In this document: positions 5,247 to 31,127 of the stretch, piece after piece | How the letters are laid out: each line of letters opens with the position of its first letter | Numbering within the stretch: the stretch's first letter is position 1 | DNA from: Tubulanus polymorphus | Lineage: Eukaryota > Animalia > Nemertea | Length of the DNA: 64,000 bases | Assembly: GCF_964204645.1 (NCBI RefSeq) | Contig: NC_134032.1 | Coordinates: 4,860,175 to 4,924,174, forward strand | Direction of reading: 5' to 3' | The notes under the pieces: generated by a model | Told to the model about the DNA's origin: nothing | What the model saw: the letters and a program-made list of their open reading frames with translations, nothing else | Databases searched by the model: none | Translations under genes and position numbers: made by a program

Positions 5247-5627
5247 AGTAATAGGGATAATAGGCTTTCATACCAAAGGTCGAAGGGTCGAGCTCGTAAA
5301 AAAATGAAAATAATAATTTACAGTTGAATTAGTCGCGCACACTCCTAATTCAACTGTAAATTATTATTATTTTCATTTTTTTACTCACTCGCCCCTTCAA
5401 CCTTTGATACGAAAGCCTATTATCCCTATTACTCTTAAAATATTCACATAAATGAATAACATTTAAATCATTGAACTTCTAAAATCAATTTTAATAAAAA
5501 ATATAGTATTAAAATGGAAGCAAATAAGTACTACTGCCCAACATGTAATATCGATATAGATAAATCCCAAAAAGCAAGACACAATAAAACTATAACACAT
5601 TTAGAGAATAAATTGAAACTAGAATAT
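5247..5627 (+). repeat. Left terminal inverted repeat (381 bp); first 187 nt form a fold-back hairpin
   Basis: Reverse complement of 23880-24260, with no mismatch seen by eye. Confidence 0.95.
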
Positions 5628-5765
5628 TTACAGTTATATTCAGAACAGTTAACAAAGGGAAAGAAATTTATTGAATTATGGAATAATGATCCAAGTAATG
5701 AACAATACGTTGAGGAATTTATTATCAAGGAATCGAAAGAACTTATCAAAAGCAGCGAGGAATGA
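5514..5765 (+). CDS. Chimeric 83-aa ORF: pPolB N-terminal zinc finger (from the TIR) fused to a paralogue of the HNH protein C-terminus
   Basis: The first 38 aa are identical to ORF 22164-23993. The following LQLYSEQLTKGKKFIELWN matches LQLYLDQLDKAKTFVELWN of ORF 5843-6511. Confidence 0.55.
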   Translation: MEANKYYCPTCNIDIDKSQKARHNKTITHLENKLKLEYLQLYSEQLTKGKKFIELWNNDPSNEQYVEEFIIKESKELIKSSEE

Positions 5766-5818
5766 AAAAGGATGACGTTAGTCGAAGAAATGGAAGAGGA
5801 TTCTAAAATGTTAATCAA

Positions 5819-5845
5819 TTTTAATAAAAATATGTATAATAAATG
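5819..5845 (+). promoter_or_regulatory. Example of second motif class TT(T/C)AATAAAAA-N9-TAAA(A)TG; also at starts 5514/23993, 12972, 19934
   Basis: Identical 9-nt spacing in four unrelated genes. Promoter function is inferred. Confidence 0.6.
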
Positions 5846-6511
5846 GAGCCGGAACAACCACAAATTATCAATATTACAAATAACACTGGCGTTATAAACA
5901 TATACTACAAGAAGTGTTCTAAATGTGAATTAGATAAATTAGCTTTAACAGAATTTAGTAAGCGTAAGATTAGCAAAGATGGTTTTCAAAATTGTTGTAA
6001 AACTTGTGCTAAACTATATACCAAACAATACCGAGAAGATAATAGAGAATCTTATAATGATTATATGACAGAATACATGAGAGAAAAATATAAAACAGAT
6101 CTTAATTTTAGATTAAAACAATGTTTACGGTCTAGATTAACGCAATTATTCAACAAAGAAACACATTCAGAAACACTATCTAATCTATTGGGTTGTTCAG
6201 ATGAATTTCTCAAATCATGGATAATATATCAATTCGATGATAAAATGAATATAGATAATTATGGTGAATACTTTCATATTGATCACGTGTTGCCGATTTC
6301 TAAATTTGACATGAATGATGAATACAATAAAAAACTTATTTGGAACTGGAGAAATTTAAGGCCTTTAGAAAAGAAAGAAAATATAATTAAATCCAATAAA
6401 CTAGATTTACAGTTATATTTAGATCAACTGGATAAAGCAAAGACATTTGTTGAATTATGGAATAGTATTTCACAGAATCAACCGCATTCTGAGGTTTTGA
6501 TCAGTGGTTAG
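5843..6511 (+). CDS. HNH endonuclease with N-terminal Cys4 zinc ribbon
   Basis: KKCSKC..CCKTC; FHIDHVLP..WNWRNLRPLEKKENIIKSN (beta-beta-alpha-metal motif of the large-DNA-virus type). Confidence 0.82.
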   Translation: MEPEQPQIINITNNTGVINIYYKKCSKCELDKLALTEFSKRKISKDGFQNCCKTCAKLYTKQYREDNRESYNDYMTEYMREKYKTDLNFRLKQCLRSRLTQLFNKETHSETLSNLLGCSDEFLKSWIIYQFDDKMNIDNYGEYFHIDHVLPISKFDMNDEYNKKLIWNWRNLRPLEKKENIIKSNKLDLQLYLDQLDKAKTFVELWNSISQNQPHSEVLISG

Positions 6512-6859: not shown

Positions 6860-7570
6860 ATGGAACACAAAGATCAACCAGAAATTCTAAGCCAACCAAC
6901 GGATGAGGAACGATTGCTACTGGATAGTGAAACTCAGGAATCAATAGAAATAGAGGATGAAACTCTCGTAATTGACGAACAAAATTCACAAACATTACAA
7001 GAACATTTGGACTATCATCAAGAAATGGTGAAAATTCTGAGTGATGTAATACATAATAAACAATTACCAAAATTACCAGCAACGCGACTTAAATTGCTGT
7101 TGGGACTCAAAGAATCGAAAACTAAGAAAATGAGTGGAGAAGAGTTGAACGAGTTTTTAAAATCTAAATTAATCATTGACACAGGACATTTAAACTTTCC
7201 GGAAATACAAAGTGTAGAAGTTATTTCATTTGCTGAAATTACTGATATCTTAAAAAAAAGTTATAAAACCATATTAAATAGAAAAGCAAATCACCTATGG
7301 GACCACATCATTTTCGGGGGTTATCTAAATATAGGGTTTTCAATGTTTGATAAAGAAACTGAGGGGATTTCTTGGGGACTGTGGGTTAAAAAGAACATAG
7401 ATATCAGTGCTGGTTTTGAACGAAAACTGAGAAGAGTAGGTAGATTAATAAAATATGAAAAATTCAAAATATTAGGATTAGCATTTAGTGAAGTAGTAAG
7501 ACATTTACCAGAAATTGAAGAAATGATTGGAAGCGATCCAGTAATTAAAGAATTCTGGACAAAATTATAA
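6860..7570 (+). CDS. Hypothetical protein, possible helical DNA-binding (DUF3102-like) C-terminal domain
   Basis: Intact 236-aa ORF; acidic N-terminus, then GGYLN..SWGLWVKKNIDIS..ERKLRRVGRL. The family call is tentative. Confidence 0.6.
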   Translation: MEHKDQPEILSQPTDEERLLLDSETQESIEIEDETLVIDEQNSQTLQEHLDYHQEMVKILSDVIHNKQLPKLPATRLKLLLGLKESKTKKMSGEELNEFLKSKLIIDTGHLNFPEIQSVEVISFAEITDILKKSYKTILNRKANHLWDHIIFGGYLNIGFSMFDKETEGISWGLWVKKNIDISAGFERKLRRVGRLIKYEKFKILGLAFSEVVRHLPEIEEMIGSDPVIKEFWTKL

Positions 7571-7650
7571 ATTATAATACTGAAGGTCTTAGATATCAAA
7601 AATGTAATCTCGATTGTATATATCTGTTTTAATATTGTATTGTTTACTGT

Positions 7651-8265: not shown

Positions 8266-8871
8266 ATGTCAAAGAAATCTAATAAAAATAGTATTGATAT
8301 TGAAAAGACATTAGATGATTTGGGTATAAGTGATAATAATGATAATGTGGCAACTAAATGTGATAATAAAATTGATAGTAATATTGATTACGAGTACTAT
8401 TTATATTGTAAACATCATCTAGAACTATTGATTGCTGGCGGGAAATCTAAGGACTTCTTAGGAAAAATAATAACTTTTCAAGAACTAGACTCTATGAAAC
8501 CCGATAAAGTAATAAAATATTTTAAGATTTATGAAGAGTCAAGATTAGCTAGAATAAATGATTCTATTTCAGATGGTATTATCAAATGTTATTCAAAATT
8601 ATGTAACCAGTTAATACTAAATAATGATGAAAATAAATTATATAATGATTTGAAAAATGACTATTTAGTTATGACTGAATTACAAAAATGGGTTGGTTAT
8701 GCTTCATTCCAATTAGGATCGGTTATGACGTTGATTTCTACTGGAGTTATAACATTTTCGAACATCAAACCTATGGAATATAAATCAGGTAAGAACGAAA
8801 CAGATGTACTACAACAAAACATCGAAACAGAAAATGAATCAGAACAAAAATTAACTAAAATAAATGAGTGA
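8266..8871 (+). CDS. Conserved Polinton hypothetical protein with C-terminal hydrophobic segment
   Basis: Intact ORF with TAAATG start; a homologous remnant lies in copy 2 at ~37520-37900. Confidence 0.75.
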   Translation: MSKKSNKNSIDIEKTLDDLGISDNNDNVATKCDNKIDSNIDYEYYLYCKHHLELLIAGGKSKDFLGKIITFQELDSMKPDKVIKYFKIYEESRLARINDSISDGIIKCYSKLCNQLILNNDENKLYNDLKNDYLVMTELQKWVGYASFQLGSVMTLISTGVITFSNIKPMEYKSGKNETDVLQQNIETENESEQKLTKINE

Positions 8872-9235
8872 TGGAGTTAAGAAAAAGGCTAGATCCGAGA
8901 AACAAATTAAATGGGCAAGAGAATTAGGTAAAAGATCTTCAGAATTAAAAAAAGCTAAGAAAAAGAAATTATCTGATATAAATGAATCTGATGGTGCCGT
9001 ACAGCACCCACACGGTGGTATTGATTCAAATAATAATCTATCTAATTCTTCTAATAGTGGAAGAAATAATTACTTATATATTACAATTGGGTTAATCACA
9101 GTTATTATATTATCCGGTGTAATATATAAATCAAAATTCAAATCCGATGATAAAGATGATTCCAATGACAATAAACCTATTATACCAGAAAATAAATCAA
9201 ATGAAAATAAATCTAAAATATTATTAATGGATTAA
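8864..9235 (+). CDS. Small basic single-pass membrane protein
   Basis: Basic N-terminus RSEKQIKWARELG and TM segment YLYITIGLITVIILSGVIY; homologue start at 37914 ([13 protein letters not shown]). Confidence 0.75.
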   Translation: MSDGVKKKARSEKQIKWARELGKRSSELKKAKKKKLSDINESDGAVQHPHGGIDSNNNLSNSSNSGRNNYLYITIGLITVIILSGVIYKSKFKSDDKDDSNDNKPIIPENKSNENKSKILLMD

Positions 9236-9238
9236 AAT

Positions 9239-10327
9239 ATGATGAAAAAAGAACAATATTTAAGAGATTTATATTATAACCCAGAAAGTGAAGTATCATA
9301 TTCTAACGTTTCAGAATTATGGGATAAAATTAAATCCGATAATAGCAATATAAAATATAGTGAATTAAAATCATGGTTACAAAATCAACCCACATATCAA
9401 ATTCATAAAAAGATGGATAAAAAATATTTAACAAGAAAAGTAATGGTTTCATATATTGACCAACAATGGCAAGCTGATTTAATTGACATGAAAAACTTAG
9501 AAGAATATAACAAAGGATATTTTTGGATACTAAATGTTATAGATATATTCAGTAGATACGCATGGAGTATCCCGATTAAAAATAAAACCGGTATAGAAGT
9601 TACAAATTCTTTCAAATTAATATTTAAAGAAGCTATCCCAGATAAGATACAATTTGATGAAGGTAAAGAATTTTATAACAAACATTTTAAAAAACTATTA
9701 TCTGATAACGATGTAGAATATTTTTCAACACATTCAGATAAAAAAGCATCTGTTATAGAAAGATTTAATAAAACATTGAAAACTAGAATGTGGAAATATT
9801 TCACCGCTAATGAAACATATAAATATATCGATGTGTTAGATGATTTAGTGAAAGGTTATAATAATTCTAAACATAGTTCTATAAATATGAAACCTATACA
9901 AGCTAGAAAAGAAGAAAATTCAGAAATAGTTTGGAATAATTTATATGGAGCATTTGTTACACATGATTTCGGTGAACCTAAATTTAAAATAGGACAACAT
10001 GTTAGAATTTCTAAATATCGAAAAACATTTTATAAAGGTTATACCCCTAATTTTACTGAAGAAATATTTAAAATTAAAAAGATAATATTAACTAAACCAT
10101 TTGTTTATAAATTGTTTGATTTAAAAGATGAAGAAATATTAGGTTATTTTTATGAACAAGAATTATCATTAGTACCAAATCCAGATGAAATAGAATACAA
10201 AATAGAAAAGGTATTGAAAACAAAAACTCTTAAAGGAAAAAAGTATTCTTTGGTGAAATATAAAGGATATGATGATAAATTTAATGAATGGATTTTATCT
10301 AGTAAAATTAAAAGAATAAATGAATAA
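9239..10327 (+). CDS. Retroviral-like (rve) DDE integrase with C-terminal chromodomain
   Basis: WQADLIDM, IDIFSRYAW, QFDEGKEF, VIERFNKTLK; chromodomain YKIEKVL..LVKYKGYDDKFNEWI. Confidence 0.95.
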   Translation: MMKKEQYLRDLYYNPESEVSYSNVSELWDKIKSDNSNIKYSELKSWLQNQPTYQIHKKMDKKYLTRKVMVSYIDQQWQADLIDMKNLEEYNKGYFWILNVIDIFSRYAWSIPIKNKTGIEVTNSFKLIFKEAIPDKIQFDEGKEFYNKHFKKLLSDNDVEYFSTHSDKKASVIERFNKTLKTRMWKYFTANETYKYIDVLDDLVKGYNNSKHSSINMKPIQARKEENSEIVWNNLYGAFVTHDFGEPKFKIGQHVRISKYRKTFYKGYTPNFTEEIFKIKKIILTKPFVYKLFDLKDEEILGYFYEQELSLVPNPDEIEYKIEKVLKTKTLKGKKYSLVKYKGYDDKFNEWILSSKIKRINE

Positions 10328-10934
10328 AGATTTATTTATATTTGAACCACATAATATGTTAATAACTGGAGTTACAAACTGCGGTAAAACACACTTCATA
10401 TTAGACTTGTTAGAAACTATTTATAAAAATCATTTTGATAATATAATATTATTCTGTCCTACTTATGAAATGAATGAAACGTATAATAGAGATATAGTTT
10501 TTAAAGATAAAAAGTTTATTATATTAAATTCTAAAACAGTAAAAGAAAATTTAGATAATTGTATAAAAATTACATTAGATATTTATAAAGGATCAAATAC
10601 ATTATTTATTATTGATGATTGCGCAAATTTACATGATTCTAAAATTAGAGAAAGTGAGTTATGTTATTTAGCTTTCTCTGGTAGACATTTTGGGATAACA
10701 ACTTGGGTTTTAAATCAGAAATATAATTCAATTGTGAAAGATTTTAGAGAGAATATAAGATTTCTAGTTTTATTCTACAACAAAGATAGAAAATCTATGC
10801 AACAATCATTGGAAGAAAATCAAATTATACCTACTGAATTACATGATGAATATATGAATAAATTAAAAAATAATAAAGGTTCCAAATTACTTATGAGATT
10901 ACAATTTCCATATGAATATAAATTTATAAAATAA
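10320..10934 (+). CDS. A32/FtsK-HerA-family genome packaging ATPase
   Basis: Walker A GVTNCGKT, Walker B LFIIDD, then SGRHFGITTWVLNQ and FRENIR. Confidence 0.92.
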   Translation: MNKDLFIFEPHNMLITGVTNCGKTHFILDLLETIYKNHFDNIILFCPTYEMNETYNRDIVFKDKKFIILNSKTVKENLDNCIKITLDIYKGSNTLFIIDDCANLHDSKIRESELCYLAFSGRHFGITTWVLNQKYNSIVKDFRENIRFLVLFYNKDRKSMQQSLEENQIIPTELHDEYMNKLKNNKGSKLLMRLQFPYEYKFIK

Positions 10935-10991
10935 CTATTTGTTTACCTATATATTAGATATGTATTAGATATGTATTATATAACTCCCCTA

Positions 10992-11557
10992 ATGTCTTTA
11001 TTATCTTTAGTACTTTAGTATTTTTAGTATATAAAGAATAAATCTTTATTTTATTAGTAGTGAATAAAATTATTTTTAAAAGTACTAAACTACTAAAGAT
11101 AATAAAGACATAACAAACACTATAGATTTATTATTACTGAATCAAATATATATAATAAATCTGTGAGATAAATAAATCTATGATATTTATTACATCTATA
11201 TATGTTTGTTATATCTTTAATATCTTTAATAGCTTTAATACTTTTAATACATAAAGAATAAATCTTTATTTAATTAATACTTAGAAAAATAAATATATAA
11301 ATAATTTTTATTAATGATAAATCTATGATATATATAATAAATATATATGATAAATAGATTTAATTATAGAAACGGTAATATGTAAAATCCATCAGATGAA
11401 TAAATATAATTATTGAAACAGTGTTATATATATATTTATGTCTTTATTATCTTTAGTAGTTTAGTAGTTTTATAAATAATTTTATTCACTACTAATAAAA
11501 TAAAGATTTATTCTTTATATACTAAAACTACTAAACTACTAAAGACAATAAAGACAC
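10992..11557. repeat. Internal nested inverted repeat between the convergent gene blocks
   Basis: ~120-bp arms at 10992-11111 and 11438-11557 are near-identical in inverted orientation, and each arm is self-complementary at its ends. A partial third copy lies at ~11212-11270. Confidence 0.9.
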
Positions 11558-11583
11558 AAAGGGTATTATATTCATATTTTAAA

Positions 11584-12972
11584 TTACTTTTCTGATTCTA
11601 ATTCTGAAAACAATTTTCTCCATGCATCTCTTAATACTTGCGATCTTCTTTCACCTAATAGTTTAAAATGATAACTATTACCATTCAAACCCTTAACAAA
11701 GAATTCATAAGTTAAATAAATATATTGGTTTAATTTGTCTTCACTTATATTTTTATATTCATTTTTTGCATCATTTCTTATTTTATTTATAACATCCTGT
11801 GAAAAATCTTCATAACTATAGTATTGAATTATTTCATCAAAGTTATCACTTATATTATCATTAACAGCAACTTTTTTCAATTCTGTTAAAAAATCTATAT
11901 TTTTAAATTTTATGAAATAATGTATACTCCAATAATTATTTGAATCAATTTTTATATATAACCGACGAGTTTTTAGATCTAATAATACTTGTTTTGGATT
12001 ATTTCTTACATAATCGATAAAAATTGATCTATATAATTTCCTATGATCATTATTTTCGATATCAAAAAATGCACTTGGTACTCTATAAAGGTTATTTAAA
12101 TCAGCAGCTTTTATTGTATGTTCAAAAGAATTATCATGTTTAATTCTATCTTTAGGTAATACAACAACATTGCACTTTTCACATATATTTCTTTCTATAT
12201 TACCCAAATGTATCTGTGTTAATTTATGCTTTGAAAAATTACTACGACTTATATATTTATCACATTCTTCACAATATTTATCTTCTTTAACATTATCATT
12301 ATCAATTTCACTATCATTATCCAATTCATTTAAAATCTTATTCTTATTTTTCTTATGCTTGAGTGAATTAAGATGAGTTGCCCAATTCTTATAACTTTTA
12401 TACTGTTTACATACGTCACAATATTTTTCATTTGTCTTTTTTGATTCAATATCATATGTAGAGGGTATATTATAAGATACATATCCTGTTACATCTTCTA
12501 TTTTATATTTAATATCATTCTTATCTTCTATTTTAGTTTCAATATCATCTTCTATTTTATATTCAATATCATTCTTATCTTCTATTTTATATTCAATATC
12601 ATTCTTATCTTCTATTTTATATTCAATATCATTCTTATCTTCTATTTTAGTTTCAATATTCTCTTTTATTTTATATTCAATATCATTCTTATCTTCTATT
12701 TTAGGTTCAATATTATTATCTATTTTTGTTTCAATATTATCTTTTATTTTAGGTTCAATATTATCTTTTATTTTAGGTTCAATATTTTCTTCTATTTTTG
12801 TATCAATATTATTATTACGTTCAATTAAATATTCTTTGTATTGATTTAATTCATTTAATAAAAATGTTCCAATATATTCATTTATTCTTTTATAAGGTAT
12901 TACATAATACAAATCATCATTGATTTCTTTATCAGCTTTGATTCTTTCATATACTTTACCTCCTCCTTCCAT
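11584..12972 (-). CDS. Zinc-finger protein with acidic tandem repeats
   Basis: Three CxxC..H..H fingers (YCDVC, YCEEC, ICEKC); IEDKNDIEYK and IEPKIKDN repeats. Confidence 0.8.
   Translation of the reverse strand: MEGGGKVYERIKADKEINDDLYYVIPYKRINEYIGTFLLNELNQYKEYLIERNNNIDTKIEENIEPKIKDNIEPKIKDNIETKIDNNIEPKIEDKNDIEYKIKENIETKIEDKNDIEYKIEDKNDIEYKIEDKNDIEYKIEDDIETKIEDKNDIKYKIEDVTGYVSYNIPSTYDIESKKTNEKYCDVCKQYKSYKNWATHLNSLKHKKNKNKILNELDNDSEIDNDNVKEDKYCEECDKYISRSNFSKHKLTQIHLGNIERNICEKCNVVVLPKDRIKHDNSFEHTIKAADLNNLYRVPSAFFDIENNDHRKLYRSIFIDYVRNNPKQVLLDLKTRRLYIKIDSNNYWSIHYFIKFKNIDFLTELKKVAVNDNISDNFDEIIQYYSYEDFSQDVINKIRNDAKNEYKNISEDKLNQYIYLTYEFFVKGLNGNSYHFKLLGERRSQVLRDAWRKLFSELESEK
12490..12810 (-). repeat. 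In-frame 24/30-bp coding tandem repeats
   Basis: ATTCTTATCTTCTATTTTATATTCAATATC units and 24-bp variants. Confidence 0.85.
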
Positions 12973-13004
12973 TTATTATATATATTTTTATTAAAGTTAA
13001 AATT

Positions 13005-14252
13005 TTAATACATAACACTATCTAATTGTGAATTTACAATATTTAATTGCGCGTCAGATATAATATAAAGGTGCATTTTAAAATTTTTGATTCCCTTTTT
13101 CTTTGTCATGAATAATTGTATTCCATCTTTTGTATTTTGTAGTTTTTTTCCAGAACCATGTAATGAATTATCTTCAGTTGTTCTAAAATCTAACCATAAT
13201 GCATATTTATTACCGGTATAATAATCAATTTGATTAATGTTACAATTTTCAAATGATTTTACTTTTTCATTCATAAAATGTTTTTTAATTTCTACCCATT
13301 GATCTATCATTCTCATTCCTTGACAAAATATTTTATTCGCTATTCCTTCGATAGTTATTTCTACTTTTGTTATTTCAGGATTATAATAATTGTCAACATT
13401 TATTGCGCCATTAGTATACGTTCCAATGGTAAAAAATATTAATATACCTTTAATAGATCTTCTAGGAAAGTTAATATTCTCATTTATTATTTCATCATTT
13501 GCATTAATAGTTACAGTTTTAAATTTATCAATATAATCATATAATAATGAAAATCCTTGATTGTATTTAGTTTGAATTATACTTGAAATATTTTCATCAG
13601 TTACTGTATCATATTCTAAACATATATTCGATAATTTATAACTCATATCTTTATTAACGCTAGATATTACAATTTCATTTACAGGAGCAAATGTTATCTC
13701 AAATATAATATCTTCTTGAATTGCGTATTTATATAAAGGTGCATTATTATTTATCAATTCAAAGTCTAATGGAATTTTATATTTGCTTCCATATATACTT
13801 TTTATCAATTTATCTACATCATTAGTTAATATTGCGCTATTAGCTTCTGATCTTAATTTATTTTGGTTTTCTGATTGGATTCCTTGAAATATCATATTAT
13901 TTCTATTTTCTTTAGTTAACCATAAATCTTTATAGTGCATAAATAAATTATAATCATCTAATGAGAAAACTGTTTCTGGACCAATCTTTATTGTTAACTT
14001 TTTAATCAAATATCTTCCAACATTATCAACGACATAATTATTATTATTACCGATTACTTTTATATCGGCTGATAAATAAATACTGTTTGGAACATAAAAA
14101 GTATTTTGTGTTAATCTCGGAATTCTAACGTATAAAGTTTCATCGGGATTAATATTTGAAGGGTTATGAGTAATTATATGATGTGATCTTTCTGCTTTAA
14201 TAGCATTAGATATTCTATGATTCTTAGAAGGATTGATATAACTCCCACTCAT
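13005..14252 (-). CDS. Putative major capsid protein (double jelly-roll)
   Basis: 415 aa, beta-rich; motifs NVGRYLIKKLTIKIG, YKIPLDF, NENINFPRRSIKGILIFF, YALWLDFR; highly conserved in copy 2. The fold is inferred, not computed. Confidence 0.78.
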   Translation of the reverse strand: MSGSYINPSKNHRISNAIKAERSHHIITHNPSNINPDETLYVRIPRLTQNTFYVPNSIYLSADIKVIGNNNNYVVDNVGRYLIKKLTIKIGPETVFSLDDYNLFMHYKDLWLTKENRNNMIFQGIQSENQNKLRSEANSAILTNDVDKLIKSIYGSKYKIPLDFELINNNAPLYKYAIQEDIIFEITFAPVNEIVISSVNKDMSYKLSNICLEYDTVTDENISSIIQTKYNQGFSLLYDYIDKFKTVTINANDEIINENINFPRRSIKGILIFFTIGTYTNGAINVDNYYNPEITKVEITIEGIANKIFCQGMRMIDQWVEIKKHFMNEKVKSFENCNINQIDYYTGNKYALWLDFRTTEDNSLHGSGKKLQNTKDGIQLFMTKKKGIKNFKMHLYIISDAQLNIVNSQLDSVMY

Positions 14253-14295: not shown

Positions 14296-15990
14296 TTACT
14301 TGATATTTTTTGATATCATATTTACTAACCCAAAAATAATAGCACTTACAACTGTAATTAAAAATAAAATAATATGTTCAGCAGCAAAGTTAATAATGTT
14401 TCCTGCAGATTTCAATATAAAACCAACAATTGATGCAATAACTCCTGGTAATGCTGCAGCAGATTTTTTAGATAGTTCCCATAAATATTTTGCTAATTTC
14501 TTTAAACCATCTTTAACTTTATCTTGTATAGAATTATTTCCTGGAGTTTTATCTGGTTTATTGGGAGTAGGAGTAGATTTTAAAGCATTTGATATTGCTA
14601 AACCAATTGTTGTAAATAACATAGTTACAGATGTTAGAATTGAAAGAATTGTTATACCTTCTAATTTAAATAATAATTTTATTCTATCTTTTAATGATAT
14701 TTCAGAATCTGGTTTAATCAACAAATCTTTAAAAATAACTTTTAATTTTTTAATATGATTAAGATCATATGATTTTAATAATATATCTCTTTCTTCTTTT
14801 TGTAATTTTATGTTATATTCTAAATCATCTATTTCTTTTACTAAAGCTAACTTTCTGCTTTCAAAATCATAAATTACTTGATGATTTCTATTTAATTCTA
14901 ATTGTTTTAATTCTTCATCTACATTAACTAATTCTTTTTCTAACAAGGTTATTTTAGAAAATCTCATCTTAATATTAGCAATTTCATCAGCTGATACTTG
15001 TATACCTTTAATTTCTCTACGTATTTGTTCAGGAAATGCTTCTAATTCTTCATCAGTTAAATTAAGAAATCCTTTTTCTAGTAAATATTGCAGTCGATTT
15101 ATTCCAGTTTCAGAACCAGATGTATCTGATATACTATTCATCAGTTCTTCTGAATCTCTTAATCTATCAATTTGTTTTTCTAATTGTAATTTACTTGAAT
15201 AATTATCAATTTGTTGAGTGTCTCTTCTCGATGTTTCGGGTGTTGAAGATCTCAATCTATCTAATCGATTTCTATTCTCTTCCATTTCTTGATCAAAATC
15301 AGTAGGATTTGGATTTGGATTTTTAAATGGATTTTTAAATGGTGAATATTTGTTTATATCAATTTTAGGAATTGGTTCTTCTTCATTTATTCTATCGAGT
15401 GCATTCCATATAATTCTGAGAAATTCTCTACCACCTTTTGAATTTTCAATTGTAGATGTTGCTCGCATTTCAGGTTCAAAAATATTTTCTTGTTCCATTT
15501 TAGATAATTGAATTGTTACAATATTCCTATTTAAATCAAGATTATAATACCATGCATCATTTTTAAATTCTAAATTATTTGTGAAATATGGGTCATCTTT
15601 AAAAATTTGTTCTACAACATCTTCAGTATCAATTTCATCTGTTACAACTGATGGTAATAATTCGTTAACAATTGCATCTGTTACTCTAGATTTCAATAAA
15701 TATAATTCTTCTTTCAATTCAGGATCAGTTGTATTTTCTAATCCATTCATTAAATTTTTTCTTTCTATTCTAGTTGTAATTATACCCCTTTCAGGAGCTT
15801 CTAAATATTTTTTAAATTTTTCACGTAATTCGGGATCAATATCATAATCTTCACCTAAATTAGTATTATATGCTGATTCATTATCATTATCGATATTATC
15901 ACCTGCATCATTATAATCATCATCAATATATCCTTCATTATCATTTCCCATGTCATCCAATGGAATATTTTCTACACCTTCTACATCCAT
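14296..15990 (-). CDS. Acidic/coiled-coil protein with C-terminal multi-segment membrane region
   Basis: EGITILSILTSVTMLFTTIGLAI, AAALPGVIASIVGFIL, IILFLITVVSAIIFGLV. Confidence 0.8.
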   Translation of the reverse strand: MDVEGVENIPLDDMGNDNEGYIDDDYNDAGDNIDNDNESAYNTNLGEDYDIDPELREKFKKYLEAPERGIITTRIERKNLMNGLENTTDPELKEELYLLKSRVTDAIVNELLPSVVTDEIDTEDVVEQIFKDDPYFTNNLEFKNDAWYYNLDLNRNIVTIQLSKMEQENIFEPEMRATSTIENSKGGREFLRIIWNALDRINEEEPIPKIDINKYSPFKNPFKNPNPNPTDFDQEMEENRNRLDRLRSSTPETSRRDTQQIDNYSSKLQLEKQIDRLRDSEELMNSISDTSGSETGINRLQYLLEKGFLNLTDEELEAFPEQIRREIKGIQVSADEIANIKMRFSKITLLEKELVNVDEELKQLELNRNHQVIYDFESRKLALVKEIDDLEYNIKLQKEERDILLKSYDLNHIKKLKVIFKDLLIKPDSEISLKDRIKLLFKLEGITILSILTSVTMLFTTIGLAISNALKSTPTPNKPDKTPGNNSIQDKVKDGLKKLAKYLWELSKKSAAALPGVIASIVGFILKSAGNIINFAAEHIILFLITVVSAIIFGLVNMISKNIK

Positions 15991-16006
15991 TTACATAATA
16001 AAAAAA

Positions 16007-17308
16007 TTAAAATTTAAAATATAATATTCCACCGATTACAATTCCTATACAAGTTATAGCTAATTTAGTATTTTCATGTGATTTATTATCATCATTTAGT
16101 TTAATTATATCATGTTGAATAATATCAGTTTTTATATCTTCTGATGTATTGTAATCTTTTATTTTAGAATCATTATTTAATTTAATATTCTTAGTTTTAG
16201 TTTCAGTTGATTGAATATGTTTTTTATTTTTTTCACCTTCCATTAATTTTGGAGCAGTAATAATCTTTTTATTTATATCATTTAATCCAAATGAATTATT
16301 TATTGTTGCAGTTTTAATTAGATTATTATAACCAATTATGTTTCCCATCTTTAATACTAAATCATTAGAAATAATTAATAGATTAGGGCCTATACAATAA
16401 TTAAGTCTTACATGAGATTTATCTAAATAATTTTGATATCTTATAATGTTTTCTGGAATCGATCTATTTTTATCATTATGTATGGAATCTTCAAATAAAA
16501 CTTTAAACTGTTTCTGCGCATCGAATGAAGTGTTATCATTTCCAATTATTGGGGATCTTGTTTCAACTTGGGCGCCTAAAATACATATCAAATAAATTCT
16601 AATAGATTGATTTATTCTTTGTATACCTGATTTTGTAAAACCTTCACCATTTTCTAAAATGAAATTAACCCAACCATTATTATTATCAATTTTATAATTA
16701 TGATAAGCTCCAATTCTATGCATATAATCAATTCTTTTTATTTCAAACTCTTCACCAACACCTTGCAATTTACCATGCGCTCTAAAATCGGAATTAATAT
16801 TTATATTAAATTCATTACATATTTTATAAAACTTGGATATATTAATATTATTATCCAATTCTTTAAAATATTTAGACCCGGGTAAAGGACATTCTAATTC
16901 ATTTAATATTATTCTGATTTGAAAATATGTGTGAAATCTAAATATTGTGTGAATTAATTTTAAATCAGAATACTTCAAATTTTTATCTAAGTTATTTAAA
17001 TGATCATTCCAACTAATTCCACATCCTGTTGTTGCACAATAAACAGCAAAATTTAATTGGTTCTGCCAATACTTCATATTAGATTTTACTTTATATTTAT
17101 GATATTCATCTCGAGTAAAAGTAACTTCATATGTATTAAATATATTTTCCATTTTAGAAATAAAAAACTGTGATTCATTAACATAAATTTCTAAATTAGT
17201 TAATGAATTTAAAACTATATTTTTATATGTAATATTTTTCTTAAAATCTATTGCCGGAATATTATATTTAATTGATTTATTATATTGGAAAGCTTTTGGA
17301 AACCCCAT
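16007..17308 (-). CDS. Conserved hypothetical protein with C-terminal membrane anchor
   Basis: YWQNQLNFAVYCATTGCGIS, FRFHTYFQIR, ILGAQ; terminal LAITCIGIVIGGILYF; homologue at 32628-33922. Confidence 0.8.
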   Translation of the reverse strand: MGFPKAFQYNKSIKYNIPAIDFKKNITYKNIVLNSLTNLEIYVNESQFFISKMENIFNTYEVTFTRDEYHKYKVKSNMKYWQNQLNFAVYCATTGCGISWNDHLNNLDKNLKYSDLKLIHTIFRFHTYFQIRIILNELECPLPGSKYFKELDNNINISKFYKICNEFNININSDFRAHGKLQGVGEEFEIKRIDYMHRIGAYHNYKIDNNNGWVNFILENGEGFTKSGIQRINQSIRIYLICILGAQVETRSPIIGNDNTSFDAQKQFKVLFEDSIHNDKNRSIPENIIRYQNYLDKSHVRLNYCIGPNLLIISNDLVLKMGNIIGYNNLIKTATINNSFGLNDINKKIITAPKLMEGEKNKKHIQSTETKTKNIKLNNDSKIKDYNTSEDIKTDIIQHDIIKLNDDNKSHENTKLAITCIGIVIGGILYFKF

Positions 17309-17348
17309 TTATATAACTAAAAAATTAATAATTTATTAATTCTTTTAA

Positions 17349-17759
17349 TTATTTATCTTGTTCTTCAACTGTTATATGACCATTTAAACTTATTATATAA
17401 TCTAGTGTGTTCTTTAATTTATTAATTTCTTTTATATTAGTTTTGATTTTTTCTTTATTACTTTTTATATTTAATTTTGAACTTATACCAGTTAAAACAC
17501 TTGAACTTAATCCTAACACACCAATTGATATAGCTAAAGGTGTTAATGGACTGAATATTGCTAGAAATGTTATTACAGAACTAATTGTAACCGAACCACT
17601 TATAATCAAATAATATATAATTTTACTTTTTAAATATTTTTTCTTTTTTATCTTTAAGTCACTTTCGAATTCTAATATTTGTTTTTCTAAATATGTTTTT
17701 AATTTAGTTTTATTTATATCATGAGGAATAATATCAATACTATCAACTTTATCTTCCAT
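17349..17759 (-). CDS. Small two-TM protein (slightly shortened by a TTA>TAA change relative to copy 2)
   Basis: Hydrophobic hairpin IIYYLIISGSVTISSVITFLAIF..LAISIGVLGL; homologue at 32175-32656. Confidence 0.75.
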   Translation of the reverse strand: MEDKVDSIDIIPHDINKTKLKTYLEKQILEFESDLKIKKKKYLKSKIIYYLIISGSVTISSVITFLAIFSPLTPLAISIGVLGLSSSVLTGISSKLNIKSNKEKIKTNIKEINKLKNTLDYIISLNGHITVEEQDK

Positions 17760-17778
17760 TTATTTAGAATAAAAATTA

Positions 17779-18201
17779 CTAATTAGTAAACTTATAAGCA
17801 ACAAATATAACAATAACTGTTCCACCCAAAATCCAAATTATTTCATATTTCTGTTGTTCTTTACTCGGGGTATAATAATCTGATAATTTAGGTTTGTATA
17901 GATGTAATTTTTCTTTATTGGTTACCGCGTTATATAAACTCATTGCATCATCAACTGATTGAAAATCTCTATGTGAAATCTTCTGATCATATAATTCTTT
18001 ATTGATGTAATCCATATAGTTTTGTCTCTTTTCTCTATATTCTTCTGCATCTTTATTATATTTCTCTAACGCTAAATTATGTCTTTTTTGTTCTGTTAAT
18101 GATCCATTTTTATCAATATGTTTAAATAAATAACCACCACCAGTAAATGCTAAAGCGTTAACAATTGCTGATCCTATAATAGTTATAATTGCAGAAGCCA
18201 T
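17779..18201 (-). CDS. Small protein with N- and C-terminal hydrophobic segments
   Basis: MASAIITIIGSAIVNALAFTGGGYLF..EQKRHNLALEKY..IIWILGGTVIVIFVAY; near-identical homologue at 31730-32155. Confidence 0.8.
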   Translation of the reverse strand: MASAIITIIGSAIVNALAFTGGGYLFKHIDKNGSLTEQKRHNLALEKYNKDAEEYREKRQNYMDYINKELYDQKISHRDFQSVDDAMSLYNAVTNKEKLHLYKPKLSDYYTPSKEQQKYEIIWILGGTVIVIFVAYKFTN

Positions 18202-18225
18202 TTATTTAGCAAAAAAATTATGTAT

Positions 18226-18447
18226 TTATATGGGAGGAATATATTTTTGTTTTTCCAAATAATCAATAGTTAAATTAGATAAAGTAACTGCTAATGTTAA
18301 CTTTAAAATATCATTGATATCAAATCTATCAACATTAACACTTCCCATTTTGAATACTTTTTTTAATACCATTGAATAACCAACAGTTCCAACTGATAGT
18401 AATGCGCCATTATATAATCCAGTTATTATCCACTTATTATCACTCAT
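18226..18447 (-). CDS. Small hydrophobic protein (73 aa)
   Basis: Differs by only 2 aa from 31484-31705 despite many synonymous changes. Confidence 0.8.
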   Translation of the reverse strand: MSDNKWIITGLYNGALLSVGTVGYSMVLKKVFKMGSVNVDRFDINDILKLTLAVTLSNLTIDYLEKQKYIPPI

Positions 18448-18803
18448 TTATTTATCAAAAAAATTACTATCTTCAAAATATTTAGTAACTTATTTATGAT
18501 TAATTCAACATTTATTTCATTATTAGTTTCATTTGTATATATTTCAATTATTATTTTTTTAATATCATCAATGATAAAATCTTCATGTAATTCATAAAAT
18601 CTTAAAGATTCTCTAATTAAATTAGTAATCTTTTCTACATTTAAAGTTTCTTTATCTATTGTTGTTTCATACTCAAATGTTGTTTCATTAGAAAATGCAA
18701 TATTTTTGATATGTGTTATTACATCATTAATGTTAAATTTCATTTCTTTCTCACGTTTAAAATCAAATCCAAAACATATACTCGGTCCAACAGTTATATT
18801 CAT
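18444..18803 (-). CDS. Hypothetical protein
   Basis: TAAATG start; homologue at 31128-31487. Confidence 0.75.
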   Translation of the reverse strand: MNITVGPSICFGFDFKREKEMKFNINDVITHIKNIAFSNETTFEYETTIDKETLNVEKITNLIRESLRFYELHEDFIIDDIKKIIIEIYTNETNNEINVELIINKLLNILKIVIFLINK

Positions 18804-18819
18804 TTATATATCAAAAAAA

Positions 18820-19575
18820 TTACTCTTTACATCTTATAACTAATTCATATATCACAGGAAAGTTATTTAAATCAATTAAGTATCCATTATGATTTCTTAT
18901 TTCTAATTTAAAATTATTAAATTTAGGAATGCATGGTTTAAAATCACATTCTGTTAAATTATAATTTATTTGAGTTCCAAATTGTTTAACATTTTTTAGT
19001 GGTAAAATATTTAGTATACTAGAATTACAAATTGTTTCTTTAGTTGCTTCGTAAGTTTTTGTAGGCTCTATTAAATTGCAATAAATATAAAAGTGTGTAA
19101 AAGGTATTATATTTGAGCTGCCTTCTGCGTTTCCAGTAACTGTAAGTGGTTTAATTCCTAACATTTTAGCCAGTGGTTTGTTTACCATAAATTTATGTTG
19201 TTCATTAGATATCTTTATTCTTATTTTATTAGTACTATCAATTTTATTAAATTTAATTTCAAATACAGAACTACCCCCGATTTTCAACCGAGCTCTTCTA
19301 TTAATTTCCTGCGCTAATGATTCTAAATTATATAATCCTGGTTTTAAAAATATATGAAACCATTTATCTTTATTTCTCATATAAATCATAAACCCTCTAT
19401 GTTCAAAAGTTTTATCCGATACATTGTAAAAAGAATTACATAAACTTATATTAACTAATTTTAAATCTACACAATTCTTAAATTCTCTATCTAATTGTAC
19501 TAGTAAATTATGAGATTTATAATTTGTAAGCCTTCTAGAATCAACAAATATTCTGTATTCTTTTAATTCTACCAT
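18820..19575 (-). CDS. Putative minor capsid protein (penton, single jelly-roll)
   Basis: IFVDSR, NISLCNSFYNV, PGLYN, FYIYCNLIE, ILNILPL, KLEIRNHNGYLIDLNN..YELVIR; this motif series is typical of Polinton mCP. Confidence 0.78.
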   Translation of the reverse strand: MVELKEYRIFVDSRRLTNYKSHNLLVQLDREFKNCVDLKLVNISLCNSFYNVSDKTFEHRGFMIYMRNKDKWFHIFLKPGLYNLESLAQEINRRARLKIGGSSVFEIKFNKIDSTNKIRIKISNEQHKFMVNKPLAKMLGIKPLTVTGNAEGSSNIIPFTHFYIYCNLIEPTKTYEATKETICNSSILNILPLKNVKQFGTQINYNLTECDFKPCIPKFNNFKLEIRNHNGYLIDLNNFPVIYELVIRCKE

Positions 19576-19592
19576 TTATTTTACATATTTTC

Positions 19593-19934
19593 TTATTCGA
19601 AATCTATTTCATGGTGCCCTTTTTCATTCTTACCTTTATATACGAAATAGAAATCTCCAGAACATAATTCTTCTAAATCTTCACTTGATAATCTATGAAA
19701 TCTATCTGGTAAATAAGTTCTGAATTTATGTGTATTTCCTTTTAATCCTTCATATTCTAAATGAATTATTAATTTATCTCCATATTTGTTAGTAACTGTA
19801 ACAATATTTGTAATTAAATATTTCTTGTGAATTGTTAACTCAGTTAGTTTTTTGAATTTATAATCTACAGATTTTACATTTGTGGTATCTTTAATTCTAT
19901 CTAAGAATTCATTGTGTACTTGTTTACTCTCCAT
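19593..19934 (-). CDS. Hypothetical protein, possible OB-fold ssDNA-binding protein
   Basis: FKKLTEL..KKYLIT..TNKYGDKLIIHLE..RTYLPDRF; adjacent to pPolB. The fold is inferred. Confidence 0.55.
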   Translation of the reverse strand: MESKQVHNEFLDRIKDTTNVKSVDYKFKKLTELTIHKKYLITNIVTVTNKYGDKLIIHLEYEGLKGNTHKFRTYLPDRFHRLSSEDLEELCSGDFYFVYKGKNEKGHHEIDFE

Positions 19935-19962
19935 TTATTATACAAATTTTTATTGAAATTTA

Positions 19963-22900
19963 TTAACACGCTAGAATCCTTTTCATAATCTCATTTTCTT
20001 TTGTTTCTTCTCTTTTGAATTTTATATATTCATCTAAATTGCAACCATAGGCGACTGTGTGGATTCCATCATCTAAAATATATCTTTTATCATCAAATGG
20101 GTTTAGACTTATCTTTTCAATTTCTTCAATATACATTTCATGATCTTCAGATCTTAAACATTTCATCTTATGTTTTCTAACTTCTTCATTAAATATACAA
20201 TTGATGTAATCTTTAAAATGAATATTCTTTTCTACTACACTTTTGGTTATTCCTTTTAACTTTTAAGCTTCATGTTCTTTAGTTTTATATGAATACATTT
20301 TAGATCTAATACCAATGAACTCTATCATTTCTTCACCACCTAATTCATCCTTAAACTTCCCAGGAACTTTTTTATTATCATTGCTAAACAATTCATGATT
20401 TTTTGGATAGTTACTGAAATCAAAATGGTGTTTTAATATTTTTAAGTCTTTTGTTATGTTATCACTTTTTATCTTTAATATATAACTGTCAGTATCTAGA
20501 TATAATATTTCTATATTTTTTTCTCCAAAATGGGGTTGCAATACATTATAATAGAATTCATACATCAATAGCTTTGAAATTTCTAAAACTGCAGCTCCAA
20601 CATAAATAGGTTTATTGAACTTCATAGAAGTTCTTTTTAATTTAACTGCAGCTAAATTTTCATCGAATATTCTGTTACCTTTGAATTTCGGATACGATTG
20701 TAAATGTCTAATTCTTTTACCATTACTAACTAACTCAATATCATTTCTATTTCTTATGTTTTCACATGTTTTTCCATAAAACGCATTATTCATTAACTTG
20801 AAGTAATCCTTCTCAAAATCAGTTTTAGCTTCAGTTCTCTGTGTAGTATTAAAATCTATATATTTTTCTAACCACTTAGATTGATTAAATGAAATATATC
20901 TATGTACTTTTTTAATATCATTCCTTGATTCAAATAGAATTTTAACATTCTATAATGAACTACATAATTATATTTATCTTCTTGAGTTACCATTAACTTT
21001 TCAGTATGAATATGATTATCGGGTTTAATTCTTTTTTGATAATTTGATAATTCTTCATGTTTAACAGTTTTATGTTCGGGACAATATGCTAGATTTCTAG
21101 ATTTGAATTTAATATTTTCAGGGTATTCTAAATCTACAACAAAGAAGTAACCAGTATCTGAATCATCTGCAATATCTAGGATTCTTTTCTTCCAATCAAA
21201 TTTATCAATTTGTAAAACTTCAGTTATTTCAAACATCCCATAAGGTTGTGGTTCCATCATTGCCCAACCATAAAGATTATTTGCATCTATGTATAATAAT
21301 TTATATCCAGGATTATCATTTACATTGAAATATCTATCACCCAATACACCTGAAACACCTCCTCTTATAGATTTTTCAAATAATAGTAATTGATCTATAT
21401 TTGTTAACAAATCCATTTTTATATTTGTAAATTTTAATCCACAATCCCATGTTAATCCTGGTGATGAATAACAATGACAAGGATCAATATTGAAATATTT
21501 TAGGTTTACATCTCTAAACCTTTCGAATATATCGGTTAATAATAATACATCTGATTTTAAATATAAATCTACTAATTGACCATGATTTTTAATTTCGAAA
21601 TGATTCCAAATATTCAATGTTCTATTATAGACTTCATCTTTAACATATTCATTTTTTAATTCATCATAGAATTGTTCTTTCAATAATTCAGTTATTTTAA
21701 AATCATTATGATTTTTATAGAAAGAATATGGAATTGCACCTTTATATCTCATTAATTTAAAATCATCATAATTTGGGTAATATTCTTTTAATATCTTTAA
21801 TTCATCATCAACTAATGATTTTGATAAGTTATCTAATGAACTATTTAAAAATCTATATGAATCTATAAATCTAAGACAACCAAATTGGAATGATATATAA
21901 TTCTCAGATGTTTTAGCTAACATTCTAAATTTATAAGTTGGTATTTTATCTTTTGATTTATTTGAATTTAATATTTCTATTTCATTATTAATTTCTTCTA
22001 TTTTGTGACATAACTGTTTGATAAATAAATGTGCGTCATACCCCGATAAATTGTGAAATATAACTGGTACAAAGTTAATTTTCTTAGCTTGTAAGTTACA
22101 ATTCTCATGTGCAGCGCCTCTAAACTTTCCATTTAAATGATCATGGTCTCTTACTTTTTTATCTTAATAATTAAATACCTTTTCACAATAATAACATTTA
22201 TCTGCAAACTCAAATGCTTCTTTATCTTCTTCTGTCATTATAATTTCTATATTTGTATTCAATAATTTACTAAATCTTATTTCATATTCAATTAATAAGT
22301 CACAAAAATGATTGATAACATTTTCATTTCTATAATGATAATATTCACTTTCAATTAGTTCTGGATAATCAGATTTAATATATAACCCGAAAGCAGCAGC
22401 TGATTGATGAATCTTTTTAATAGTATTTGTTTTTGGTGGTTCTTCTGAATAATCACTTTCATTAGAATTTAATTTCTTTCTTTTATAATATATATCTTTT
22501 CTATCTTTATCTGTTAATTCTTTATTTAATGATTCAAAATCTCCATATATTACAAATGGTACTTTATTTTTGTAATCATATTTTTTGAATTCTAATATTT
22601 TATCTTTTTCATTTGGTAAAACTAATTTACAATAATCATGATTATCACATAGTTGTTTATGATTTAATAATGTACTTTCATTACTAAATTTATGTAAACA
22701 TTTTCTACATAGATATATTTTATTATGGTGATCACTTTCTGTTCTAAAAAATAAATCGATTTGTTTAATCCACATATAATGATTCTCATAATATAGTATA
22801 TCTATAACATCGTTTGAATCATAATCTTTTGATAGATATAAAGGTTCTAATGTATAATGTTTAATATTATTTCCTTTTGTATTTGGTAATTTAATTAAAT

Positions 22901-23993
22901 CAAATACATTTATTTTAAGATTATTATCTCTTTCTATTTTGGGGATGTTTTTAATTCTAACAGGATACTTATCTATCTTATAATTATTTTCAAATTGTTT
23001 ATAATGAGTTAATCTAAAACTATGTGTAATATCTTCTGTTGGATGTAAACAACTTATTATAGCCCATATAAAACATTTATTATCAAAATTTTGTATATTT
23101 ATTACACCATTAGTTTTAAATGGTAGTTTAATATAACTTGTTCCATTTATACTATCATCTTTATAATATGATAAATTATTTTCATCAATTGGTTTTGATT
23201 TAGTTAACTTATTATATTTTGTGTTATAAACATGTAAAGTTATAAATATTATCTCATCAAATATTAAACCAGATCCTTCAAAATATTTCTCTTCTATTTT
23301 AGTTTTTATTTCATTATAACATTTATTTAATTTATCATCTATATGTTGTTTAGATATAATATGTTGTGAATGAGAATTTATATTATATATTGGTTTATCT
23401 TCAGATTTTATAAACTTTACTTTAACTGATATACTAATTTTAGGATATTCAACATCTGTAATTATTTTTATTATTTCTTTCATATTTTCTAAATGTTTTT
23501 TATTTTCTTCTATTGTTTTACCTTTATGAAATTTAAACTCGATAGCTGCTGGACCAATATCACTTTTAAATGCTTCGGTTATCTCTATATCTTTTTTATT
23601 ATCTAATGAATTAATATAATTTCTTACATCTTCCATGTATGGTCTTTTATTGTTTAATTTATTTTTTATTCTTTTAATTGTCTTCTGTTTCTTATCGTTA
23701 TCATTATCAAAATAATCATCACCTAAAATATCATTATTCTTATTTCTAATATGACTTATAGATTTTAAATGTTCTTTATAATATCTTTTATCACTGAATG
23801 ATTGATTACATGTATCACATTTATATGTTTCCTTTTCATTCTTTAATTCTTCTAATTTAGTTTCTAATATATCATCCTTATATTCTAGTTTCAATTTATT
23901 CTCTAAATGTGTTATAGTTTTATTGTGTCTTGCTTTTTGGGATTTATCTATATCGATATTACATGTTGGGCAGTAGTACTTATTTGCTTCCAT
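19963..23993 (-). pseudogene. Protein-primed-type family B DNA polymerase (zinc fingers, OTU-like protease region, EndoVII-like domain, exonuclease, polymerase) with three lesions
   Basis: YGDFES, RDHDHLNGKFRGAAHENCN, FHNLSGYD, YIDANNLYG, KLMNNAFYGKT, YLDTDS. In-frame TAA at 22164-22166 and 20263-20265, and a 1-bp deletion in the T-run at 20908-20913. Confidence 0.93.
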
Positions 23994-24260
23994 TTTAATA
24001 CTATATTTTTTATTAAAATTGATTTTAGAAGTTCAATGATTTAAATGTTATTCATTTATGTGAATATTTTAAGAGTAATAGGGATAATAGGCTTTCGTAT
24101 CAAAGGTTGAAGGGGCGAGTGAGTAAAAAAATGAAAATAATAATAATTTACAGTTGAATTAGGAGTGTGCGCGACTAATTCAACTGTAAATTATTATTTT
24201 CATTTTTTTACGAGCTCGACCCTTCGACCTTTGGTATGAAAGCCTATTATCCCTATTACT
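23880..24260 (-). repeat. Right terminal inverted repeat (381 bp); hairpin at 24074-24260
   Basis: Reverse complement of 5247-5627; includes the pPolB promoter and first 38 codons. Confidence 0.95.
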
Positions 24261-31111: not shown

Positions 31112-31127
31112 TTTTTTCATTATATAA

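What the first reader, a model, noticed from the sequence alone, without database searches (positions are those of the whole stretch)
5247..24260. Candidate endogenous virophage-like parasite of a poxvirus-like virus: a Polinton with pox-style promoters and hairpin ends
Seen: a complete integrated element with integrase, pPolB, ATPase and capsid genes but no recognisable RNA polymerase or transcription factor. Its genes are tightly packed and almost all intronless, start at TAAATG in two fixed-spacing classes, and both ends fold back as hairpins. Established: poxvirus post-replicative promoters use a TAAA/TAAAT initiator overlapping the ATG; poxvirus genomes end in imperfect AT-rich hairpins; the virophage mavirus shares its helper virus's late promoter and reactivates from the host genome on infection. 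Inference: this family may be expressed by a helper virus's cytoplasmic transcription machinery and could act as an infection-triggered, heritable antiviral element in an animal host.
Basis: partly seen in the sequence, partly recalled or inferred. Interest (0 to 1): 0.92.

Follow-up and report, generated by a model that had tools for sequence, protein, structure and literature searches.

The report
Polinton clade with poxvirus-type promoters
A recently inserted, multi-copy virus-like element in an animal genome starts nearly all its genes at a motif matching the poxvirus late promoter, a trait shared by its branch of relatives but not by the sister branch, so it likely borrows the transcription machinery of a poxvirus-like virus that has not been found.

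Summary
Real element: a 19,014-bp protease-less Polinton (5247-24260) with identical 381-bp TIRs, 6-bp TSD, integrase, ATPase and double jelly-roll capsid; its pPolB is broken. The promoter signal holds and is sharper than reported: 14 of 18 starts are TAAATG (9% of all ATGs), and all 14 have T at the 9th base upstream, like vaccinia late promoters. In relatives the motif follows lineage, not AT content: 58 of 64 starts in 14 motif loci, 3 of 221 in 38 sister loci; 31 of 34 versus 1 of 44 at overlapping GC. T at -3 runs against the Kozak rule. The two classes share that T and swap between orthologues, so they are not clearly intermediate and late. The 187-bp terminal palindromes are real but not pox-like (34% GC, same orientation at both ends), and terminal palindromes are published for virophages and PLVs. 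No helper virus, RNA or pox-derived gene was found; antiviral function is untested. Best reading: an endogenous satellite of a pox-like virus (0.6). The scan reported this pattern earlier in another genome (e1-8580207).

The parts
5241..5246 (.). Left target-site duplication CATATT (right copy 24261-24266); insertion lies in the 3' end of a LINE RT gene
5247..5627 (+). Left TIR, 381 bp, identical to the right TIR; holds the PolB promoter and first codons
5247..5433 (.). Terminal imperfect palindrome, 187 nt, 34% GC
5514..5765 (+). 83-aa zinc-finger ORF, start shared with PolB through the TIR (TAAAATG)
5843..6511 (+). Endonuclease VII/HNH-like gene; TAAATG, A-run type
   Evidence: (phrog_1035 E 3e-17)
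6860..7570 (+). Unknown 236-aa ORF; TAAAATG
8266..8871 (+). Conserved family gene (201 aa); TAAATG
8864..9235 (+). 123-aa basic protein with hydrophobic segment; TAAATG
9239..10327 (+). rve integrase with C-terminal chromodomain; TAAAATATG
10320..10934 (+). A32-type packaging ATPase; TAAATG
   Evidence: (PF04665 E 1e-12)
10978..11571 (.). Internal inverted repeat (136-nt arms, 93%) between the two convergent gene blocks
11584..12972 (-). 462-aa repeat and zinc-finger protein; TAAATG, A-run type
13005..14252 (-). Double jelly-roll major capsid protein; TAAATG, T-run type
14296..18803 (-). Six co-directional genes (564, 433, 136, 140, 73, 119 aa), four of them shared with sister elements; all TAAATG, T-run type; the 136-aa one is weakly SLATT-like
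18820..19575 (-). 251-aa gene of a family conserved in both branches, probable minor capsid protein (inferred, not folded); TAAATG
19593..19934 (-). 113-aa beta-rich protein, 27 unnamed relatives, no family; TAAATG, A-run type
19966..23993 (-). Protein-primed-type PolB, broken by two in-frame stops and one frame shift; TAAAATG
23880..24260 (-). Right TIR with the second terminal palindrome (24074-24260)

Best explanation
This is an integrated, multi-copy Polinton whose genes start at a TAAATG motif with a conserved upstream T, and it likely depends on the RNA polymerase of a co-infecting poxvirus-like virus, making it a probable endogenous satellite of that virus. Shown: the anatomy, many insertion sites, the motif, its vaccinia-late-like spacing and its restriction to one lineage. 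Inferred: a helper polymerase would start at the AAA and add a short poly(A) leader, so no 5' UTR or Kozak context is needed; all genes, PolB and integrase included, would switch on late in helper infection, as in mavirus; pPolB would copy the genome, ATPase and capsid would package it, and the chromodomain integrase would return copies to the chromosome with a 6-bp TSD. The terminal palindromes are probably replication or excision structures of the element itself, not closed pox-type telomeres. This copy's PolB is broken, so it would need a sister copy in trans.
For: 14 of 18 starts TAAATG against 65 of 727 ATGs (binomial p 4e-12). T at the 9th base upstream of TAAAT in 14 of 14 starts against 22 of 51 non-start sites in this element; 65 of 72 against 59 of 157 over 15 loci; GC falls to 0-8% at -14..-9 and relaxes to 33-40% at -6..-5. 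Vaccinia late promoters: TAAAT(G) over the start codon, conserved T at the 10th base upstream among other Ts (PMC11980589), T core 5-7 bp from TAAAT (PMC5294985). Lineage, not composition: 44 of 50 starts in 12 close loci, 14 of 14 in L038/L073 (33-36% MCP identity), 3 of 221 in 38 sister loci; 31 of 34 (GC 30-44%) against 1 of 44 (GC 26-39%). MCP, ATPase and integrase trees separate the two branches. AT-rich viral loci: 14 of 186 ORFs. TAA is never the upstream stop in this element; only 29 of 71 starts contain AATAAA. 1,492 reads leave the element at exactly 5247 into unlike flanks. PLVs occur in entomopoxvirus occlusion bodies.
Against: No helper virus or pox-derived gene found: no RNA polymerase subunit among 18 element ORFs or 29 accessory ORFs from relatives and the window. 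The T is the 9th base by my count and the 10th in the review; the one-base offset is unresolved (primary paper not held). Four loci inside the motif branch lack TAAATG (L015 0/2, L051 0/4, L053 0/11, L079 0/2). AT-rich sister loci have T-A(2-7)-TG at 22 of 38 starts, so a looser motif is less exclusive. Starts within and between loci are not independent, so p-values overstate. Coral polintoviruses are transcribed in stressed and control colonies, and the passages seen name no helper (PMC11131425; clade not checked). A nuclear provirus must meet a cytoplasmic polymerase. My two searches for poxviruses in marine invertebrates listed no such title.
Confidence: 0.6

Rival explanations
1. The element is transcribed by host RNA polymerase II, and TAAATG is a compact lineage-specific initiator or translation signal that only resembles the pox motif.
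For: Sister elements are as tightly packed and have no TAAATG; coral polintoviruses are expressed; no helper found.
Against: T at -3 in 58 of 64 motif starts, while 226 of 308 non-motif starts have a purine there; a fixed T 12 bases before the ATG has no role in a Kozak context; TAA is not the upstream stop.
Confidence: 0.15
2. The promoters are read by a different cytoplasmic partner: a non-pox large DNA virus or a cytoplasmic linear plasmid with its own polymerase.
For: TAAAT occurs in ranavirus polymerase promoters; yeast cytoplasmic linear elements make non-templated poly(A) leaders (abstract start); the 462-aa protein looks like Nucleocytoviricota zinc-finger proteins (lead only, 0.92).
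Against: ASFV late genes use TATA and CroV TCTA; the T plus TAAATG layout over the start codon is the poxvirus one in the papers read.
Confidence: 0.13
3. The promoters are relics of an ancestral satellite lifestyle; the family now spreads in this genome as a nuclear transposon without a helper.
For: PolB is broken in this copy; two other copies in the window are decayed or cut off; copy number is high.
Against: The motif is kept, with free spacer changes, across elements of 20-44% GC and down to 33-36% MCP identity, which implies continued selection; this copy has identical TIRs and an intact TSD.
Confidence: 0.12

Closest known systems
Maverick/Polinton (Polintoviricetes; adintoviruses of Starrett et al., PMC8502044)
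   Same: pPolB, rve integrase, A32 ATPase, double jelly-roll MCP, TIRs, 6-bp TSD, animal host.
   Different: No cysteine protease found; nearly all starts at a pox-late-like motif; 187-bp terminal palindromes. The word 'promoter' does not occur in that paper's main text.
Mavirus provirophage and CroV (bioRxiv 10.1101/068312)
   Same: Integrated, shares Maverick TIR/TSD structure, all genes on a helper late-type promoter.
   Different: Protist host, mimivirid helper with a TCTA motif; dependence and protection shown there, untested here.
Entomopoxvirus-associated PLVs (Barth et al., bioRxiv 10.1101/2023.10.16.562556; PMC11296320)
   Same: Polinton-type elements proposed as parasites of poxviruses; two are divergent Maverick-Polintons.
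   Different: They carry an adenain protease and mu protein and lack rve integrase; found in occlusion bodies; 'promoter' and 'TAAAT' occur 0 times in both versions' main text.
Vaccinia late promoter (PMC11980589, PMC5294985)
   Same: TAAAT over the start codon, T-rich core with one conserved T about 10 bases upstream, short relaxed spacer.
   Different: One-base offset in counting unresolved; no transcript or activity data here.
Terminal palindromes of Halocafeteria virophages and PLV subtype 4 (bioRxiv 10.64898/2026.07.28.741278)
   Same: Palindromes inside TIRs next to the TSD.
   Different: There 52 nt in the subtype drawn and mostly with non-pPolB replicases; here 187 nt with pPolB.

Membership tests
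Maverick/Polinton (Polintoviricetes) | Protein-primed PolB | tested here: met
   PF03175 E 2e-9; aligns along intact relatives, broken at three places
Maverick/Polinton (Polintoviricetes) | Retroviral-type integrase | tested here: met
   PF00665 E 6e-9 plus chromodomain
Maverick/Polinton (Polintoviricetes) | A32 ATPase and double jelly-roll MCP | tested here: met
   PF04665 E 1e-12; model pLDDT 84.9 matches iridovirus/PBCV-1/mavirus/adintovirus capsids
Maverick/Polinton (Polintoviricetes) | Minor capsid protein | tested here: inconclusive
   251-aa gene in a 25-member cluster from both branches; no family hit above cut-off; not folded
Maverick/Polinton (Polintoviricetes) | TIRs and 6-bp TSD | tested here: met
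   381-bp identical TIRs, CATATT on both sides
Group 1 Maverick / adenain-bearing adintovirus | Cysteine protease | tested here: not met
   No protease family among 18 element ORFs; group 2 gene content is variable
Virophage (functional sense) | Promoters shared with the helper's late genes | tested here: inconclusive
   Matches the vaccinia late consensus; the real helper is unknown
Virophage (functional sense) | Replication depends on, and inhibits, a large DNA virus | not testable with these tools
   No infection data
Poxvirus late promoter | TAAAT overlapping the ATG | tested here: met
   14 of 18 starts
Poxvirus late promoter | T-rich core with conserved T about 10 bases upstream | tested here: met
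   T at the 9th base in 14 of 14 and 65 of 72 starts; review says 10th
Poxvirus late promoter | Non-templated 5' poly(A) leader and activity under viral RNA polymerase | not testable with these tools
   No RNA reads available
Poxvirus intermediate promoter (for the A-run class) | Lacks the T at -10 | tested here: not met
   A-run starts also carry the T; class swaps between orthologues
Poxvirus hairpin telomere | Imperfect inverted repeat at the ends | tested here: met
   187 nt, z -18.5
Poxvirus hairpin telomere | AT-rich | tested here: not met
   34% GC against 24% for the element
Poxvirus hairpin telomere | Flip and flop forms in equal numbers | tested here: inconclusive
   Same orientation at both ends; 1,492 junction reads at 5247, none listed at 5433 among the six rows shown (smallest 539; 1,622 rows hidden)
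Poxvirus hairpin telomere | Covalently closed ends in the free genome | not testable with these tools
   Only integrated DNA seen
Entomopoxvirus-associated PLVs (Barth et al.) | Adenain protease and mu protein, no rve integrase | tested here: not met
   rve present, protease absent

The most novel reading that the evidence does not exclude
A whole lineage of animal Polintons are endogenous virophages of an undiscovered poxvirus-like group: silent in the germline, switched on by helper infection, and protective for the host population. Start-site dialects in neighbouring lineages (TAAATG here; TATA with a short leader in L053) would mark different helper families, so Polinton promoters could predict which large DNA viruses infect an animal.
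Probability: 0.22. Interest if true: 0.95.

Novelty: new variant of a known kind. Interest (0 to 1): 0.76.

Why it matters
Whether animal Polintons are autonomous viruses, transposons or satellites is a long-open question. A lineage-specific helper-type promoter makes it testable with a short reporter assay and with 5'-end sequencing, points to poxvirus-like viruses in hosts where none is recorded in the papers my searches listed, and extends the mavirus model from protists to animals if it holds.

Tried and rejected
No whole genome is held, so host-gene controls, exact copy number and a genome search for helper remnants were not possible. No RNA holder listed; one guessed-RNA run gave next to nothing on 5050-12400: no evidence either way. 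MCP and integrase found no relatives in viral contigs or phage records. A scan of viral contigs for the A-run motif gave 120 single-match loci and no candidate helper; kept as an AT control. The search for a pox RNA polymerase subunit or late factor was blank. The 113-aa protein's single-sequence model was poor (pLDDT 49.9) and was not searched. The 462-aa protein's C-terminal region had no homologues; the 236-aa protein gave no usable Atlas hit. The relative's nucleoside kinase gave no named viral match. Introns rejected: the PolB breaks are stops and a frame shift. Stop-start coupling and poly(A)-signal overlap rejected as the source of TAAATG. TTTTTNT counts were too low to be informative. 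Read-level detail on flip/flop ends remains open. Yang et al. 2011 is not held.
Full report
What is there. The element runs from 5247 to 24260. Its TIRs are 381 bp and identical, and CATATT flanks both ends. It sits in the 3' end of a LINE reverse-transcriptase gene. It encodes an rve integrase with a chromodomain, an A32-type ATPase and a pPolB domain, and an MCP whose model (pLDDT 84.9) matches double jelly-roll capsids. No protease, RNA polymerase or transcription-factor family was hit by 18 ORFs in Pfam, 16 in PHROGs or 14 in NCBIfam. PolB is broken by in-frame stops at 22164-22166 and 20263-20265 and a frame shift near 20907-20949. I saw no intron. In a DNA run of the same species label, 34,643 reads lay on 5050-12400, and 1,492 left the element at exactly 5247 into unlike flanks (agreement 0.34). 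Depth was about 250-1,660 over most of the left half and 13-37 over 10954-12400. The family therefore has many insertion sites, at least tens; no genome was held to count them. The host is an animal by inference from the flanking LINE and Pao elements; I did not identify it.

The start motif. Of 18 gene starts, 14 are TAAATG, 3 TAAAATG (two are the same TIR sequence) and 1 TAAAATATG; 65 of 727 ATGs in the element are preceded by TAA (binomial p 4e-12). TAA is never the upstream gene's stop. All 14 have T at the 9th base upstream of TAAAT, against 22 of 51 non-start TAAATG sites. Over this element and 14 related loci the figures are 65 of 72 and 59 of 157. GC content drops to 0-8% at -14 to -9 and rises to 33-40% at -6 to -5. 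That is a core, a relaxed spacer and an initiator. The vaccinia late promoter is described as TAAAT followed by G over the start codon, with a conserved T at the 10th base upstream among other Ts; intermediate promoters lack that T (PMC11980589, passages). A second review puts the T core 5-7 bp from TAAAT (PMC5294985, passages). The viral polymerase reads TAAA directly at -1 to +3 (PMC12917281, passages); on that numbering my T is at -10. The offset against the review's wording is unresolved because the primary paper is not held. ASFV late genes use TATA (PMC7163114, passages).

The two classes. Seven structural-block genes have a T run at -13 to -7, and the nuclease, 462-aa, 113-aa and PolB starts have an A run at -17 to -10. 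Both carry the T, and orthologues switch type: MCP is A-type in L007, L011 and L012; the 251-aa gene is T-type in L009, L061 and the second copy in the window. I read them as variants of one late-type promoter, not as intermediate and late.

Lineage versus composition. An MCP profile fetched 80 metagenome loci (best 80 of 163) and 3 genome loci. They share the same gene set. MCP (58 rows, quick tree), ATPase (46) and integrase (12) trees split them into two branches (midpoint roots, long branches flagged). TAAATG starts, ORFs of 100 aa or more: 44 of 50 in 12 close loci (near-duplicates L002, L011, L014 left out), 14 of 14 in L038 and L073, 3 of 221 in 38 sister loci. At overlapping GC: 31 of 34 against 1 of 44. 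Left out of both groups: L065 1/1, L069 2/3, L077 1/1, and four loci inside the motif branch that lack it (L015 0/2, L051 0/4, L053 0/11, L079 0/2); the remaining short or duplicate loci were not counted. L038 and L073 were grouped by their motif, so that count is partly chosen. Orthologues are related, so p-values overstate. AT-rich viral loci picked for one motif match gave 14 of 186 ORFs. TAAATG puts T at -3; 226 of 308 starts in non-motif loci have a purine there. Against exclusivity: AT-rich sister loci have T-A(2-7)-TG at 22 of 38 starts, though with A at -3 in 32 of 38, and sister elements are just as tightly packed.

The hairpins. Each end holds a 187-nt imperfect palindrome (z -18.5). 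It is 34% GC, and both ends have the same orientation. Vaccinia hairpins are AT-rich, come in equal flip and flop forms and lie next to a late-promoter-like resolution site (PMC8956199, passages); by eye I saw no such site facing the tip. Reads show deletions through the hairpin centre and 783 reads diverging after 5303; no loose end at 5433 is among the six rows shown, with 1,622 hidden. A non-motif relative has hairpins near its end (L055, z -8.6), a third element end in the window has none, and terminal palindromes are published for Halocafeteria virophages and a PLV subtype (10.64898/2026.07.28.741278, passages). A protein-primed polymerase argues for protein-capped ends (established knowledge). 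The hairpins do not support a poxvirus link.

Mechanism. Most likely (0.6) a pox-like helper's polymerase starts at the AAA and adds a poly(A) leader, so the element needs no UTRs. All genes would then be late-gated, as in mavirus, whose provirus is silent until CroV infects (10.1101/068312, passages). The element's own polymerase, ATPase, capsid and integrase would do the rest; this copy would need PolB in trans. These steps are inferred. Rivals: host Pol II (0.15), another cytoplasmic partner (0.13), a relic (0.12). Coral polintoviruses are expressed in stressed and control colonies (PMC11131425, passages), which counts against helper dependence for the class in general.

What is known. Barth et al. 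described PLVs in entomopoxvirus occlusion bodies (preprint part 1 of 4 and passages; journal version passages). They have a protease, lack rve integrase, and neither main text contains 'promoter' or 'TAAAT'; supplements were not seen. Starrett et al. (passages), two 2026 surveys (passages) and the egovirus preprint (passages) have no occurrence of 'promoter'. PMC7728225 gave only the entomopox early motif (passages). The yeast linear-element papers were seen as listings only. Searches listed no title or abstract start on pox-type promoters in Polintons; the library lacks most subscription papers. This scan noted the same pattern in another animal genome, with a pox polymerase subunit in some copies (e1-8580207). 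That is an unchecked note, not evidence. I looked for such a subunit among 18 element ORFs and 29 other ORFs and found none.

Verdict. A new variant of a known kind: a Polinton lineage with a well-controlled pox-late-type start signature. Helper dependence is likely but unshown, the hairpin link is rejected, and antiviral benefit is speculation. Interest 0.76.

Noticed in passing
L053 (whole locus): A 46% GC relative inside the motif branch has no TAAATG but TATA within 30 bases of 7 of 11 starts (background 7%), like the ASFV late initiator with a short leader; GC-rich sister loci show 29 of 144.
   Followed up: partly
window 29619-38478: Second, inverted and decayed family member (MCP 91% identical, several broken genes, an AT microsatellite); 6 of 7 shared starts keep TAAATG; its end closes a 13-bp terminal stem with a weak interior (z -2.1).
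   Followed up: partly
window 1-956: End of a third related element (PolB start about 52% identical, TAAATG start) whose terminus has no hairpin.
   Followed up: partly
window 10978-11571: Internal inverted repeat between the convergent gene blocks; few reads cover it, so it is specific to few copies. A relative has a hairpin at the matching junction (L004 near 3210). Possible terminator or origin.
   Followed up: partly
L005:10343-10981, L007:2898-3377: Deoxynucleoside kinase genes in two motif-branch loci; source not resolved.
   Followed up: partly
window 5843-6511: Endonuclease VII-like gene next to the terminal palindrome, with matches in four motif-branch loci only; could cut cruciforms or be a homing nuclease.
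   Followed up: no
P0045 cluster: MCP relatives at 54% identity are filed as Bartonella hypothetical proteins on contigs under 2 kb; probably animal-host DNA in those assemblies (inference).
   Followed up: no
window 40360-41200: AT-rich fragment with the A-run start motif and a broken zinc-finger-like frame, probably a remnant of another element.
   Followed up: no
window 48024-50810: Intact 928-aa ORF, transposase-like by eye, not searched.
   Followed up: no
window 52374-53231: 146-bp spaced repeat array.
   Followed up: no
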